The notes under the pieces were generated by a model that ran no database searches, was not told where the DNA came from, and was given only the letters and a program-made list of their open reading frames with translations. From the sequence record OR352947.1: a stretch of DNA of 64,000 nt. One strand, written 5' to 3'. Numbering within the stretch: position 1 is the stretch's first letter; each line of letters starts with the position of its first letter. Positions 39,530-40,387 of this stretch are shown piece after piece. The DNA comes from Escherichia phage AV117. The translations under genes and the position numbers were made by a program.

Positions 39530-39537
39530 TATTTATA
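39530..39537 (-). promoter_or_regulatory. Late promoter TATAAATA
   Basis: Exact minus-strand TATAAATA 36 nt upstream of ATG 39494. Confidence 0.45.
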
Positions 39538-39567
39538 CAAAAAAGCCCCAACCTTTCGGAAGGGGCT
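39535..39567 (-). terminator. Rho-independent terminator closing the tRNA/small-RNA transcription unit
   Basis: Hairpin AGCCCC-uuccGAAAgguu-GGGGCU followed by UUUUUUG; sister of the terminator at 23466-23498. Confidence 0.55.
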
Positions 39568-39599
39568 ATATACCTTGTCGGGGTTTCCACCTACTAGGT

Positions 39600-39780
39600 A
39601 AGTGTTTTTACGAAACGCCGGGATTCGAACCCGGTTATTAAGCAGTTGACGCTACTCAATATTTTTAAAAGGCCATATCTCGACCATATCCGAACGTTCC
39701 GTCAAAAACGCTACTCGGCTTACGGCAAAGATATTTCCTCGAATCGATAATTCTGTGCGCCGTTTCTGCTGTGATGTAAG
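39600..39780 (-). ncRNA. Putative stable small RNA region (tRNA-like T-arm; possibly a T4 rnaC/rnaD-like species or a tRNA remnant)
   Basis: ORF-free; canonical T-arm CCGGG-UUCGAAU-CCCGG at 39618-39634 on the minus strand but no pairing acceptor stem; position matches the T4 stable RNAs downstream of tRNA-Arg. Confidence 0.2.
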
Positions 39781-39869
39781 GGGGTATTAACAAATCGTAA
39801 AGATTTATTAAGACCAGTCCTTACTCAGGGAACATCAGTCCGACGTCTTGCCGGTAGCGACCCGGCTTC

Positions 39870-40214
39870 TTATTTTGGCATATCATCAATTTGCTCTCGA
39901 CGCCGACGCCATAGATTAATCGCTTCATAAACACATTCAGCATTTGGTATATGGCGACAATAGTATAGTGATTCGCGTTTCTGGAACCGATGTTGTAATG
40001 GAATTTCGTTTAAAAGGTCTTTACGGTCAAAGTATTCAAAACTAGTTAACCCGGAACGGTTTTTAAGAAACTTCCAATGTCCGAATTCATTTTGAAAATA
40101 AACGTAATCAGCGTGTTGATATAACGAATTAATCAACCGGTCGGAAATAACTGTATCCTGTTCGTTAAAATAAAACGTTAAATCATGAACTACCAAATAA
40201 ATATTGCCTTTCAT
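39870..40214 (-). CDS. Hypothetical protein embedded in the tRNA locus
   Basis: 114 aa from ATG 40214 (MKGNIYLVVHDLTFYF...) with SD GAGGAAAAT; the ORF-track start would overlap tRNA-Arg. Confidence 0.5.
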   Translation of the reverse strand: MKGNIYLVVHDLTFYFNEQDTVISDRLINSLYQHADYVYFQNEFGHWKFLKNRSGLTSFEYFDRKDLLNEIPLQHRFQKRESLYYCRHIPNAECVYEAINLWRRRREQIDDMPK

Positions 40215-40232
40215 ATTTTCCTCACTTGAAGT

Positions 40233-40309
40233 TGGTCGAGACAGAAGGATTCTAACCTTCAACCTACGGATTAGAAGTCCGTTGCTCTATACAATTGAGC
40301 TATGCCTCG
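40233..40309 (-). tRNA. tRNA-Arg (anticodon UCU), CCA encoded
   Basis: Hand-folded cloverleaf: acceptor CGAGGCA/UGUCUCG, D-arm GCUC/GAGC, anticodon arm ACGGA-CUUCUAA-UCCGU, T-arm GAAGG-UUAGAAU-CCUUC. Confidence 0.8.
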
Positions 40310-40312
40310 GAT

Positions 40313-40387
40313 TGGTGACCCTGGCTGGTTTCGATCCAGCTACCTATCAGTTATGAGCTGACAGCTCTCCCATTGAGCTACAGGGCC
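40313..40387 (-). tRNA. tRNA with anticodon CAU (Ile, lysidine-type, or Met), CCA encoded
   Basis: Hand-folded: acceptor GGCCCUG/CAGGGUC, D-arm GCUC/GAGC, anticodon arm GUCAG-CUCAUAA-CUGAU, T-arm GCUGG-AUCGAAA-CCAGC; 3 nt from tRNA-Arg. Confidence 0.7.

What the first reader, a model, noticed from the sequence alone, without database searches (positions are those of the whole stretch)
39530..40387. Minimal tRNA locus (two tRNAs) with an inserted ORF and a tRNA-like T-arm remnant
Only two tRNAs are present, one with anticodon CAU (Ile/Met) and tRNA-Arg(UCU), both with encoded CCA and 3 nt apart, whereas T4 has eight in the equivalent cluster. A 114-aa ORF lies 18 nt downstream of tRNA-Arg, and a further ~270-bp ORF-free stretch has a perfect T-arm (CCGGG-UUCGAAU-CCCGG) with no matching acceptor stem. 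The whole unit ends at a strong terminator. This looks like a decaying or remodelled tRNA island, with the T-arm region possibly a stable processed RNA or a truncated tRNA.
Basis: partly seen in the sequence, partly recalled or inferred. Interest (0 to 1): 0.5.

Follow-up and report, generated by a model that had tools for sequence, protein, structure and literature searches.

The report
Phage tRNA operon with tRNA-like RNA
The supposed 'T-arm remnant' is this RB69-like phage's nearly unchanged copy of phage T4's species 1 RNA (rnaC), a tRNA-shaped stable RNA known since the 1970s whose function is still unknown, so the locus is a known, intact layout and not a decaying tRNA island.

Summary
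All features lie on the minus strand and form one unit. In order: a MotA-type promoter-like site, tRNA(CAU), tRNA-Arg(UCU), a 114-aa ORF, rnaD, rnaC, a trailer hairpin and an intrinsic terminator.

The window is a Mosigvirus (RB69/JS09-like). RB69 has the same order; the ORF is RB69ORF150c, found in 425 phage records.

The 'ORF-free stretch with a T-arm' aligns to T4's annotated species 2 RNA (rnaD, 104 of 121 alignment columns identical) and species 1 RNA (rnaC, 137/139).

A 7-bp acceptor stem with two U·U mismatches is present and becomes fully Watson-Crick in Yersinia and Pectobacterium phages.

Thirty-six distinct rnaC sequences from at least ten genera support a cloverleaf-like four-way junction (97.5% of cells paired, 36 of 50 pairs covary). 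Two hexaloops, UUGACG and CGUCAA, are exact complements and change together in two clades, which indicates a kissing-loop contact.

rnaC has no Rfam family and no bacterial copy was found.

Verdict: already known and intact, not decaying. Function is unknown; my best guess is a non-decoding tRNA mimic. The structural model gives testable handles.

The parts
40450..40474 (-). MotA-box middle-promoter-like site (TGCTTTA, 12 nt, TATTAT) about 60 nt upstream of tRNA(CAU).
   Evidence: Pattern scan: 13 matches in the window against 3.6 expected by chance. T4 literature places a middle promoter upstream of the tRNA cluster (PMC2330249). This is a consensus match only; activity was not tested.
40313..40387 (-). 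tRNA with anticodon CAU and encoded CCA. It is probably the AUA-reading tRNA-Ile, the homologue of T4 'tRNA-Ile', which also carries CAU.
   Evidence: ARAGORN. Rfam tRNA 59.4 bits. Alignment with T4 tRNA-Ile: the first 18 nt are identical, the anticodon loop CUCAUAA is identical, and the 3' acceptor strand differs at one base (CAGGGUC here, CUGGGUC in T4).
40233..40309 (-). tRNA-Arg(UCU), which reads AGA, with encoded CCA.
   Evidence: ARAGORN. Rfam tRNA 71.1 bits.
39870..40214 (-). 114-aa ORF, the orthologue of RB69ORF150c (phrog_3355, function unknown). Its stop codon overlaps the 5' end of rnaD.
   Evidence: tblastn: 94.7% identity to RB69ORF150c and 425 phage records with a match. No Pfam hit. 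The AF2 model has pLDDT 69.6 and matches only uncharacterised phage proteins.
39754..39873 (-). rnaD (species 2 RNA) orthologue. It has a 5' hairpin GCCGG-GUCGCUA-CCGGC, conserved flanks and a variable central hairpin.
   Evidence: Mapped from the T4 misc_RNA annotation (71171..71053) by alignment; 104 of 121 columns identical. Fold z-score -4.1. Comparison of 21 sequences.
39609..39747 (-). rnaC (species 1 RNA) orthologue, a tRNA-shaped four-way junction.
   Evidence: 137/139 identical to T4 rnaC (71046..70908). Covariance model score 164 bits. Fold z-score -4.55. Covariation.
39740..39746 (-). rnaC acceptor stem, 5' strand (CGAUUCG). It pairs with 39611..39617.
   Evidence: Compensatory changes: A-U to G-C at the third pair, and fully Watson-Crick stems in the Yersinia and Pectobacterium phages.
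39670..39739 (-). rnaC arm I. A 3-bp stem (AGG/CCU) stands where a D-stem would be and carries a long hairpin. An invariant GG precedes the CCU strand.
39700..39705 (-). Apical hexaloop of arm I, UUGACG.
   Evidence: Exact reverse complement of the arm II hexaloop. The two loops change together in the Tegunavirus clade (UUGAUG/CAUCAA) and in the Marfavirus/Klebsiella clade (UUGGCG/CGCCAA).
39636..39661 (-). rnaC arm II: a 10-bp stem with the hexaloop CGUCAA (39646..39651). It stands where the anticodon arm would be.
   Evidence: 9 of its 10 pairs show changes on both sides.
39618..39634 (-). rnaC T-arm, CCGGG-UUCGAAU-CCCGG.
   Evidence: Two stem pairs covary. U55 and C56 of the loop are invariant except in one clade.
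39609..39617 (-). rnaC acceptor stem 3' strand (CGUUUCG), then U at the discriminator position, then A. The genomic tail here is UAAA; most relatives have UACA.
   Evidence: among the 37 sequences the tail is UACA in 29, UCCA in 4, UUCA in 3, and UAAA only in this window.
39571..39600 (-). Conserved trailer hairpin between rnaC and the terminator.
   Evidence: Fold. It is also conserved in phages that lack rnaC.
39539..39566 (-). Intrinsic terminator: GCCCCUUCC-GAAA-GGUUGGGGC followed by UUUUUU.
   Evidence: In T4, transcription of the tRNA cluster ends after the species I gene (PMC2330249).
39530..39537 (-). T4 late-promoter motif TATAAATA. It belongs to the next gene (208-aa ORF, 39494..38868), not to this unit.
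   Evidence: Motif only: 9 matches in the window against 8 expected by chance.

Best explanation
The finding is one intact T4-type transcription unit on the minus strand of a Mosigvirus (RB69-like) genome. In order it holds a MotA-type middle-promoter-like site, tRNA(CAU), tRNA-Arg(UCU), a 114-aa ORF (RB69ORF150c), rnaD, rnaC, a trailer hairpin and an intrinsic terminator.

Shown here:
- The 'ORF-free stretch with a T-arm' is the orthologue of T4's stable RNAs species 2 (rnaD) and species 1 (rnaC).
- rnaC is tRNA-derived in its architecture. It has a 7-bp acceptor stem, a 3-bp D-stem-like helix carrying a long inserted hairpin (arm I), a 10-bp arm II in place of the anticodon arm, a canonical T-arm, and U at the discriminator position.
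- The apical hexaloops of arms I and II are exact complements and covary. This indicates a 6-bp loop-loop ('kissing') contact, either within one molecule or between molecules.

Inferred from the anatomy and from classical T4 work (my own recollection for the RNase P part):
- The primary transcript is cut like a tRNA precursor.
- RNase P makes the 5' end of rnaC, because the acceptor/T-arm minihelix with U at -1 is a standard RNase P substrate.
- Exonucleases trim the 3' trailer back to the acceptor stem.

Function is unknown in the literature. My best guess (about 0.35) is a non-decoding tRNA mimic. It would present an acceptor/T-arm/elbow surface to a host or phage factor that recognises tRNA shape and titrate or recruit it, while the kissing loops lock the non-tRNA arms.
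For: Identity:
- blastn of the stretch hits 800 phage records. T4 and RB68 annotate rnaC and rnaD under the match.
- The T4 annotation lists misc_RNA rnaC ('species 1 RNA') and rnaD ('species 2 RNA') immediately after tRNA-Arg.
- The alignment gives rnaC 137/139 and rnaD 104 of 121 columns.
- RB69 has the same gene order, with the rnaD/rnaC stretch left unannotated.

Structure:
- The MFE fold is a four-way junction, z-score -4.55.
- RNAalifold on 8 sequences gives 45 pairs, 12 of them with compensatory changes.
- On 36 distinct sequences, 97.5% of cells are paired and 36 of 50 pairs change on both sides. None of 500 shuffles reaches this, and versions with partners slid by 1-3 columns reach only 35-49%.

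Kissing loops:
- 99.5% of cells are paired.
- There are two independent compensatory events: A-U to G-C in 3 Marfavirus/Klebsiella phage sequences, and C-G to U-A in 3 Tegunavirus-clade sequences.
- The loops were unpaired positions in the covariance model, so the alignment was not fitted to this pairing.

tRNA-like behaviour:
- In Karamvirus, Gelderlandvirus and the Erwinia phage COW86c, rnaC sits between tRNA-Trp and tRNA-Gly with the same short spacers as tRNAs. In Mosugukvirus PM2 it sits between tRNA-Ser and tRNA-Trp. In Moonvirus Moon and Kanagawavirus IME523 it follows a tRNA(CAU).
- U or A always precedes the acceptor stem. The tail after the stem is U+NCA in 36 of the 37 sequences, with a true CCA in 4.
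- ARAGORN miscalls its 3' 95 nt as a tRNA in PG7 and G9062.

Expression:
- Both RNAs were classed as late RNAs in T4 transcriptomics, checked by a Northern assay; a riboprobe is described for RNAC (PMC9697503).
- T4 transcription runs from the middle promoter through the cluster and ends after species I (PMC2330249).

Host-related role:
- The only SNP shared by all lines of a T4-like phage adapted to the host ECOR34 lies in rnaD (PMC12685909).
Against: - No experiment on this phage was available. The ends are transferred from the T4 annotation and could be off by 1-3 nt.
- The function is explicitly 'unknown' in reviews and recent papers.
- As I recall (not checked here), T4 deletions that remove the tRNA region are viable on laboratory strains.
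- rnaC is cleanly missing from Dhakavirus Esco_phi_B-01 and Gaprivervirus VR20. Any role is therefore dispensable or host-specific.
- The kissing contact rests on two evolutionary events. Whether it is geometrically possible within one molecule was not modelled.
- The high identity to T4 could partly reflect recombination in this homing-endonuclease-active region. However, the identity peak coincides with the rnaC boundaries.
- The tRNA-mimic function has no direct support. No binding partner is known, and this window's tail is UAAA instead of UACA.
Confidence: 0.85

Rival explanations
1. One reading: a decaying tRNA island in which the T-arm belongs to a truncated, non-functional tRNA remnant and the ORF is a recent insertion.
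For: - Only 2 tRNAs here against 8 in T4.
- rnaC fails the Rfam tRNA model; the only related hit is tRNA-Sec at 16.6 bits, E = 4.4.
- T4 lacks the ORF, and tRNA-Arg abuts rnaD there.
Against: - rnaC is 137/139 identical to T4, while the neighbouring sequence is about 70-86% identical.
- 36 of 50 pairs covary across at least ten genera.
- The element is present inside large intact arrays of 15 or more tRNAs.
- The ORF occurs in 425 records; in RB69 and in the T2-type phage HY01 it has the same position.
- The T4 orthologue is an abundant stable RNA.
Confidence: 0.03
2. rnaC (and rnaD) are cis-acting processing or stability modules. A tRNA-like RNase P site and stable helices at the 3' end of the operon would organise maturation of the polycistronic transcript and protect it from 3' exonucleases, with no role in trans.
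For: - They sit at the 3' end of the unit just before the terminator in Tequatrovirus and Mosigvirus.
- Spacing inside tRNA arrays is tRNA-like.
- Here rnaD and rnaC form the 3' UTR of the ORF's mRNA.
- rnaC is dispensable in VR20 and Esco_phi_B-01.
Against: - In Karamvirus, Gelderlandvirus and the Erwinia phage it lies in the middle of arrays that need no extra RNase P site.
- A processing signal would not require invariant hexaloops that covary with each other, an invariant GG, an A-rich linker and an NCA tail.
- The processed product accumulates as a discrete stable RNA.
Confidence: 0.15
3. rnaC is a trans-acting base-pairing small RNA whose conserved loops are seeds for host or phage mRNA targets.
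For: - The single-stranded hexaloops and the A-rich linker are highly conserved.
- The papers at hand describe rnaC and rnaD as small regulatory RNAs.
Against: - The two most conserved loops are complementary to each other and change together. This is what mutual pairing predicts. Pairing to a fixed host target predicts no change.
- The terminator hairpin and U-tail typical of Hfq-dependent sRNAs are not part of the mature RNA as annotated in T4.
Confidence: 0.1
5. rnaC is a chargeable tRNA-like RNA (tmRNA-like or a non-canonical adaptor) that receives CCA and an amino acid.
For: - Acceptor stem, T-arm and U at the discriminator position are present.
- A genuine UCCA tail is encoded in the three Klebsiella phage sequences (two of them classified as Marfavirus) and in Pectobacterium phage PM2. 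C75 and A76 are conserved in 36 of 37 sequences.
Against: - Most lineages encode ACA, and this window encodes AAA.
- The T4 annotation ends the RNA at UA.
- There is no 7-nt anticodon loop. ARAGORN finds no tmRNA or tag peptide.
- No Rfam tRNA or tmRNA match reaches threshold.
Confidence: 0.05

Closest known systems
Bacteriophage T4 rnaC (species 1 RNA, 139 nt, T4s001)
   Same: Orthologue: 137/139 identical. Same position after rnaD and before the trailer hairpin and terminator. Same strand logic.
   Different: Two substitutions. The genomic tail after the acceptor stem is UAAA here and UACA in T4.
Bacteriophage T4 rnaD (species 2 RNA, 119 nt, T4s002)
   Same: Orthologue: 104 of 121 alignment columns identical. 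Conserved 5' hairpin and 3' segment.
   Different: In T4 it follows tRNA-Arg by 1 nt and ends in CACCA. Here it follows the 114-aa ORF, whose stop codon lies in its first bases, and it ends in CACA.
RB69 tRNA region (tRNA-Met(CAU), tRNA-Arg(UCU), RB69ORF150c)
   Same: Same gene order. The ORF is 94.7% identical.
   Different: The RB69 record leaves the rnaD/rnaC stretch unannotated.
Canonical tRNA (Rfam RF00005)
   Same: 7-bp acceptor stem, 5-bp T-stem with a GUUCGAAUC-type loop, four-way junction, GG in a D-loop-like position, NCA tail, placement and spacing inside tRNA arrays.
   Different: 139 nt long. There is no 7-nt anticodon loop; instead a 10-bp stem carries a hexaloop. About 60 nt are inserted into the D-loop region. 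There are no linker nucleotides at positions 8-9. It fails the Rfam tRNA threshold.
tRNA-like domain of tmRNA, and the tRNA-like module of bacterial Y RNA-like YrlA
   Same: Non-decoding RNAs that keep an acceptor/T-arm minihelix and are handled by tRNA enzymes (my own knowledge).
   Different: No tag reading frame and no tmRNA call. No significant Rfam match to tmRNA or YrlA on rnaC. No CCA in most lineages.
   Same: Two loops of one RNA that are complementary and covary.
   Different: The contact is 6 bp between two hexaloops on a tRNA-like scaffold. Whether it forms within or between molecules is unknown, and no link to packaging or ligand binding is known.

Membership tests
T4 rnaC (species 1 RNA) | Sequence homology over the full length of the annotated T4 misc_RNA | tested here: met
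   137/139 identical, no gaps. Covariance model score 164 bits.
T4 rnaC (species 1 RNA) | Synteny: downstream of rnaD, upstream of the operon terminator, co-oriented with the tRNAs | tested here: met
T4 rnaC (species 1 RNA) | Accumulates as a discrete stable RNA of about 140 nt during infection | not testable with these tools
   Shown for T4 only: Northern and RNA-seq in PMC9697503.
T4 rnaC (species 1 RNA) | 5' end made by RNase P | not testable with these tools
   Classical T4 result recalled from memory. It is consistent with the acceptor/T-arm minihelix and the U at -1.
T4 rnaD (species 2 RNA) | Sequence homology to the annotated T4 misc_RNA and position directly upstream of rnaC | tested here: met
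   104 of 121 columns identical with 3 gap columns. Flanks are conserved in 21 sequences.
tRNA (the two called genes) | Cloverleaf scoring above the Rfam gathering threshold, with an anticodon called | tested here: met
   59.4 and 71.1 bits against a threshold of 29. ARAGORN calls CAT and TCT.
tRNA (applied to rnaC) | Score above the Rfam tRNA gathering threshold | tested here: not met
   The only related hit is tRNA-Sec at 16.6 bits (threshold 47), E = 4.4. No hits on divergent homologues.
tRNA (applied to rnaC) | 7-bp acceptor stem and 5-bp T-stem with a 7-nt T-loop | tested here: met
   Helices 1 and 9 are 99.4% and 100% paired, with compensatory changes. The window has two U·U mismatches in the acceptor stem.
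tRNA (applied to rnaC) | 5-bp anticodon stem with a 7-nt loop containing U33 and a purine at 37 | tested here: not met
   The arm is a 10-bp stem with an invariant 6-nt loop CGUCAA.
tRNA (applied to rnaC) | 3' CCA end | tested here: not met
   The window encodes UAAA and most relatives UACA. UCCA occurs in only 4 of the 37 sequences. Post-transcriptional addition was not testable.
AUA-reading tRNA-Ile (lysidine type), applied to tRNA(CAU) | Homology to a tRNA known to be Ile despite a CAU anticodon; C4-G69 and C5-G68 in the acceptor stem | tested here: inconclusive
   About 52 of 72 aligned positions match T4 tRNA-Ile, with identical 5' acceptor strand, D-arm start and anticodon loop. C4-G69 and C5-G68 are present by inspection. 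The TilS determinants are recalled from memory, and the modification is not testable here.
tmRNA | tRNA-like domain plus a tag-peptide reading frame | tested here: not met
   ARAGORN reports no tmRNA in the window. No Rfam tmRNA match.
   6 of 6 positions are complementary, 99.5% of cells are paired, and two pairs show double changes in independent clades.
   Needs native gels, SEC-MALS or structure determination.
Intrinsic terminator | G+C-rich hairpin followed by a U run | tested here: met
   GCCCCUUCC-GAAA-GGUUGGGGC plus U6. The simple scanner missed it because of internal U·U mismatches.

The most novel reading that the evidence does not exclude
rnaC is a tRNA-derived RNA that kept the acceptor/T-arm/elbow surface and the NCA tail but replaced the decoding half. 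The replacement is two arms locked by a covarying 6-bp kissing contact. That would finally give a function to T4's species 1 RNA and define a new class of phage tRNA mimics, widespread in T4-type phages of enterobacteria and absent from Rfam.
Probability: 0.2. Interest if true: 0.75.

Novelty: already known. Interest (0 to 1): 0.3.

Why it matters
As a locus it does not matter much. It is the standard RB69-type tRNA/stable-RNA operon, and its parts have named T4 counterparts.

The wider point is that species 1 and 2 RNAs have been known for about 50 years and still have no function. They are also missing from Rfam and from most phage annotations. In the records I inspected the stretch is left blank, covered by short 'hypothetical protein' ORFs, or miscalled as an odd tRNA.

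The comparative model obtained here gives concrete mutations to test:
- an acceptor stem confirmed by covariation;
- a long hairpin inserted at the D-loop position;
- an invariant GG together with a canonical T-loop;
- an NCA tail;
- two hexaloops that pair with each other.

It could also seed an Rfam family that would clean up annotation of these phage genomes.

Tried and rejected
- **Rfam (4227 families) on the region and on divergent homologues.** Only the two tRNAs pass. rnaC and rnaD have no family.
- **Alternative acceptor stem inside arm I (CGGAACG/CGUUUCG).** It looks better in T4 and explains ARAGORN's 95-nt 'tRNA-Met' and 'tRNA-???' calls in PG7 and G9062. I rejected it because it breaks in Karamvirus (an A·C pair) and in the Yersinia phage, while the 5'-terminal strand covaries.
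- **rnaD as a second tRNA-like RNA.** T4's CACCA end is not conserved (CACCG, CACAG and CACCU elsewhere), and its 5' hairpin loop GUCGCUA does not fit a T-loop. Rejected.
- **Wasted scans.** One pattern with a wrong spacer length cost one viral and one genome scan. The corrected pattern found no new variants in IMG/VR and nothing in one genome per species of 185,579 bacterial and archaeal species.
- **rnaC against 5,426 complete E. coli genomes.** No match.
- **The 114-aa ORF.** Pfam gave nothing above threshold. PHROGs gave a family of unknown function. The AF2 model (pLDDT 69.6) gave no PDB match below E = 0.04, and only uncharacterised T4-like phage proteins in BFVD.
- **Literature.** The original species 1 sequencing papers and the T4 genome review are not in the held library. 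Statements about RNase P processing and about modified bases rest on my memory.
- **Late promoter inside the unit.** None found. The only TATAAATA lies after the terminator.
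Full report
**What is in the sequence**

All features of the finding lie on the minus strand.
- ARAGORN finds exactly two tRNAs in the 64-kb window: tRNA(CAU) at 40387..40313 and tRNA-Arg(UCU) at 40309..40233.
- Rfam's tRNA model scores them 59.4 and 71.1 bits against a threshold of 29.
- Both tRNAs carry an encoded CCA and they are 3 nt apart.
- A 114-aa ORF starts 18 nt after tRNA-Arg (ATG at 40214, stop ending at 39870).
- About 330 nt without a credible ORF follow. 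They contain the T-arm CCGGG-UUCGAAU-CCCGG (39634..39618).
- The stretch ends in a hairpin plus U6 terminator at 39566..39539.

**Where the window comes from, and the layout**

The region is 98-99% identical to many Mosigvirus (RB69/JS09-like) phages.

RB69 itself has the same order: tRNA.2, ORF151c, tRNA-Met(CAU), tRNA-Arg(UCU), RB69ORF150c, an unannotated gap, ORF149c.

The ORF is 94.7% identical to RB69ORF150c. It occurs in 425 phage records, including T2-type Tequatrovirus at about 68% identity. In HY01, the one T2-type phage whose coordinates I compared, the ORF (68427..68771) lies directly upstream of the rnaD/rnaC match (68072..68423). T4 lacks the ORF; its tRNA-Arg abuts rnaD, and it has the homing endonuclease gene segB between tRNA-Ile and tRNA-Arg. 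A paper on SegB also notes two ORFs of unknown function in the T2L tRNA region (PMC2330249). The ORF is therefore a conserved family member, not a recent insertion into a decaying island.

I could not assign the ORF a function:
- Pfam gave nothing above threshold.
- PHROGs gave phrog_3355, function unknown.
- The AF2 model has pLDDT 69.6. Foldseek matched nothing in the PDB and only uncharacterised T4-like phage proteins in BFVD.

A MotA-box middle-promoter-like site lies about 60 nt upstream of tRNA(CAU), at 40474..40450. This pattern occurs 13 times in the window against 3.6 expected by chance. It fits T4, where a middle promoter upstream of the cluster drives a transcript that ends after the species I gene (PMC2330249). 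The TATAAATA at 39537..39530 lies after the terminator and belongs to the next gene.

**The two tRNAs**

tRNA(CAU) matches T4's 'tRNA-Ile', which also has a CAU anticodon, at about 52 of 72 aligned positions. The first 18 nt and the anticodon loop are identical. It is therefore probably the AUA-reading isoleucine tRNA and not a methionine tRNA. The lysidine modification that would prove this cannot be tested here. Together with tRNA-Arg(UCU), the phage keeps decoders of AUA and AGA, which I recall as rare codons in E. coli.

**What the 'T-arm remnant' is**

A blastn search with the non-coding stretch hits 800 phage records. In T4, T4T and RB68 the match is annotated rnaC and rnaD. The T4 record lists misc_RNA rnaD ('species 2 RNA', 71171..71053) and rnaC ('species 1 RNA', 71046..70908) directly after tRNA-Arg.

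Transferring these coordinates through the alignment gives rnaD at about 39873..39754 and rnaC at about 39747..39609. Identities are 104 of 121 columns for rnaD and 137/139 for rnaC. The trailer down to the terminator is only 59 of 83. The identity peak coincides with the rnaC boundaries.

Both RNAs were classed as late RNAs in T4 transcriptomics, checked by a Northern assay (PMC9697503). Their function is described as unknown in 2010, 2022 and 2025 papers.

**Structure of rnaC**

The minimum-energy fold is a four-way junction (-50.2 kcal/mol, z-score -4.55).

I collected homologues as follows:
- blastn hops within the phage collection;
- pattern scans of IMG/VR and metagenomes;
- a covariance model built from eight sequences;
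- a search with the filters switched off, which recovered divergent copies in Karamvirus EnC15, Kanagawavirus, Gelderlandvirus, Marfavirus, Moonvirus and Mosugukvirus.

On 36 distinct sequences:
- 97.5% of cells form standard pairs;
- 36 of 50 pairs show changes on both sides;
- none of 500 shuffles reaches these values;
- structures with partners slid by 1-3 columns reach only 35-49% pairing.

The elements are:
1. A 7-bp acceptor stem, CGAUUCG/CGUUUCG. It has two central U·U mismatches in T4-like sequences. It is fully Watson-Crick in the Yersinia phage (CAGUCCG/CGGACUG) and the Pectobacterium phage (AGGUUCG/CGAAUCU).
2. Directly adjoining it, a 3-bp helix AGG/CCU that carries a long hairpin (arm I).
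3. A 9-nt A-rich linker.
4. A 10-bp arm II with the invariant hexaloop CGUCAA.
5. One nucleotide, then the canonical T-arm.
6. U at the discriminator position.

An alternative acceptor strand inside arm I (CGGAACG) pairs even better in T4. It explains why ARAGORN, and with it GenBank, calls a 95-nt 'tRNA-Met' in PG7 and a 'tRNA-???' in G9062. It is broken in Karamvirus and in the Yersinia phage, so I rejected it.

**A loop-loop contact**

The apical hexaloop of arm I (UUGACG, 39705..39700) is the exact reverse complement of the arm II hexaloop (CGUCAA, 39651..39646).
- In the Tegunavirus clade both loops change: UUGAUG with CAUCAA.
- In the Marfavirus/Klebsiella phage clade both change at a different position: UUGGCG with CGCCAA.
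- In lineages where the whole of arm I has a different sequence (EnC15, PEi20, Melville, Kosakonia 305, Ursula, NM4.3), the two hexaloops are still kept.

Counted as a pseudoknot helix, 99.5% of cells pair and two of the six pairs show compensatory change. These positions were unpaired in the covariance model, so the alignment was not fitted to this pairing.

I infer a 6-bp kissing contact. Whether it closes within one molecule or joins molecules, as in phi29 pRNA, cannot be decided here. Arm I (about 24 bp) and arm II (10 bp) are unequal. A rough length budget allows closure within one molecule only with sharp bends at the GUA bulge and the internal loops.

**Further tRNA-like traits of rnaC**
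- An invariant GG precedes the 3' strand of the AGG/CCU helix, where a D-loop's G18 and G19 would be. T-loop positions U55 and C56 are invariant. The only clade with GG changed to CG (MY742/IME523) also has the T-loop changed from UUCGAAU to UGCAUGC, which could restore an 18-55 pair. This is a single event and only suggestive.
- After the acceptor stem the genome reads U+ACA in 29 of the 37 sequences, U+CCA in 4 (Klebsiella phages and PM2) and U+UCA in 3. Only this window has U+AAA.
- U or A always precedes the stem.
- In Karamvirus, Gelderlandvirus and the Erwinia phage COW86c, rnaC lies between tRNA-Trp and tRNA-Gly. The spacers are the same short ones that separate tRNAs: CCA, 5-6 nt, rnaC, then GUACAAAUU, then the next tRNA. 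In PM2 it lies between tRNA-Ser and tRNA-Trp. In Moon and IME523 it follows a tRNA(CAU).
- In Dhakavirus Esco_phi_B-01 and Gaprivervirus VR20, rnaC is missing and rnaD and the trailer remain. In Esco_phi_B-01 the rnaD end joins the trailer directly; in VR20 an ORF (VR20_145) lies between them. It behaves as a discrete module.
- No copy was found in one genome per species of 185,579 bacterial and archaeal species, or in 5,426 complete E. coli genomes.
- No Rfam family matches it.

**rnaD**

rnaD has a conserved 5' hairpin, (G/A)CCGG-GUCGCUA-CCGG(C/U), whose closing pair switches between G-C and A-U. It has conserved flanks that pair with each other, and a central hairpin that exists in three unrelated versions. 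Its CCA-like end in T4 is not conserved, so I do not regard it as tRNA-like.

In a laboratory evolution study, the only mutation shared by all lines of a T4-like phage adapted to the semi-permissive host ECOR34 lay in rnaD (PMC12685909). That hints at a host-specific role for this RNA pair.

**How it most likely works**

Shown:
- the unit is intact;
- the RNAs are orthologues of T4's stable RNAs;
- rnaC has a conserved tRNA-like fold with an extra loop-loop contact.

Inferred:
- The transcript starts at the middle promoter and ends at the terminator.
- tRNA-processing enzymes cut it. RNase P makes the rnaC 5' end. This is a classical T4 result that I recall but could not re-read, and it fits the minihelix and the U at -1.
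- 3' exonucleases trim the trailer back to the acceptor stem.

Function is unknown. The strong sequence constraint, the retained acceptor/T-arm/elbow surface and NCA tail, and the loss of any anticodon point the same way. They make a non-decoding tRNA mimic that binds a factor recognising tRNA shape the most likely mechanism (about 0.35).

The rivals are:
- a purely cis-acting processing or stability module (0.15);
- a base-pairing small RNA (0.1), disfavoured because the conserved loops pair with each other;
- a pRNA-like multimer (0.1);
- a chargeable tRNA-like RNA (0.05);

**Verdict**

The 'decay' interpretation is not supported, while the 'stable processed RNA' alternative is correct and long known. 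I rate the novelty as already known and the interest as low to moderate. The moderate part comes from the comparative structure. To my knowledge it has no Rfam family or modern description, and it makes the 50-year-old question of what species 1 RNA does more directly testable.

Noticed in passing
L041 456-550 (Enterobacter phage PG7, NC_023561); L043 454-549 (Escherichia phage G9062, NC_054920): GenBank and ARAGORN call the 3' 95 nt of rnaC a 'tRNA-Met' (PG7) or 'tRNA-???(aa)' (G9062). These calls use an alternative acceptor strand inside arm I that covariation does not support.
   Followed up: yes
L053 416-553 (Klebsiella phage Marfa gp277); L054 420-557; L048 346-519; L049 366-476: In several phage records, short 'hypothetical protein' CDSs are annotated right across the rnaC homologue. 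They are probably annotation artefacts.
   Followed up: partly
L010 1499-2212 (VR20); L011 about 1500-1720 (Esco_phi_B-01): rnaC is absent while rnaD and the trailer plus terminator remain. In VR20 a 127-aa ORF (VR20_145) occupies the place. Another Gaprivervirus, TH15 (L013), does have rnaC.
   Followed up: partly
window 39606-39610: This window's rnaC tail reads UAAA. 29 of the 37 relatives read UACA, and phages with an identical rnaC core (L005, L029, L035) also have UACA. This is a single C-to-A change at the position equivalent to C75.
   Followed up: partly
window 39868-39880 compared with T4 71165-71177: The last codons and the stop of the 114-aa ORF (..AUGCCAAAAUAAGAAGCC) resemble the T4 junction between the tRNA-Arg CCA end and rnaD (..AUACCAAAUGAGAAACC). 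The ORF's stop codon lies inside the first bases of rnaD. This may be a trace of how the ORF was gained or lost.
   Followed up: no
window 39571-39600, and the same position in T4 and in phages lacking rnaC: A hairpin between rnaC and the terminator is conserved, with a G-C (T4) to A-U (window) switch in its stem. In T4 and many others a second GCAA-tetraloop hairpin follows; it is shortened here.
   Followed up: partly
rnaD, window 39754-39873; sequences: The central hairpin of rnaD exists in three unrelated sequence versions between highly conserved flanks. The closing pair of the 5' hairpin alternates between G-C and A-U.
   Followed up: partly
L014, L028, L047 (Enterobacter phages MY742 and IME523): This is the only clade in which the invariant GG before the CCU strand is CG. 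It is also the only one with a non-canonical T-loop (UGCAUGC). This may be compensation of a G18-U55-like tertiary pair.
   Followed up: partly
L046 1595-2209 (Enterobacter phage EnC15): A homing endonuclease gene sits inside the tRNA array between tRNA-His and tRNA-Ser. It recalls segB in the T4 tRNA cluster.
   Followed up: no
window, 13 sites listed: The MotA-box middle-promoter pattern (TGCTTNA, 11-13 nt, TANNNT) is enriched 3.6-fold over shuffles, and 10 of the 13 sites are on the minus strand.
   Followed up: no
window 40478-40495 (minus strand): A terminator-like hairpin (CAACCGTTAAAATGGTTG plus a T-rich run) ends the upstream 171-aa gene and overlaps the MotA box of the tRNA promoter-like site.
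   Followed up: no
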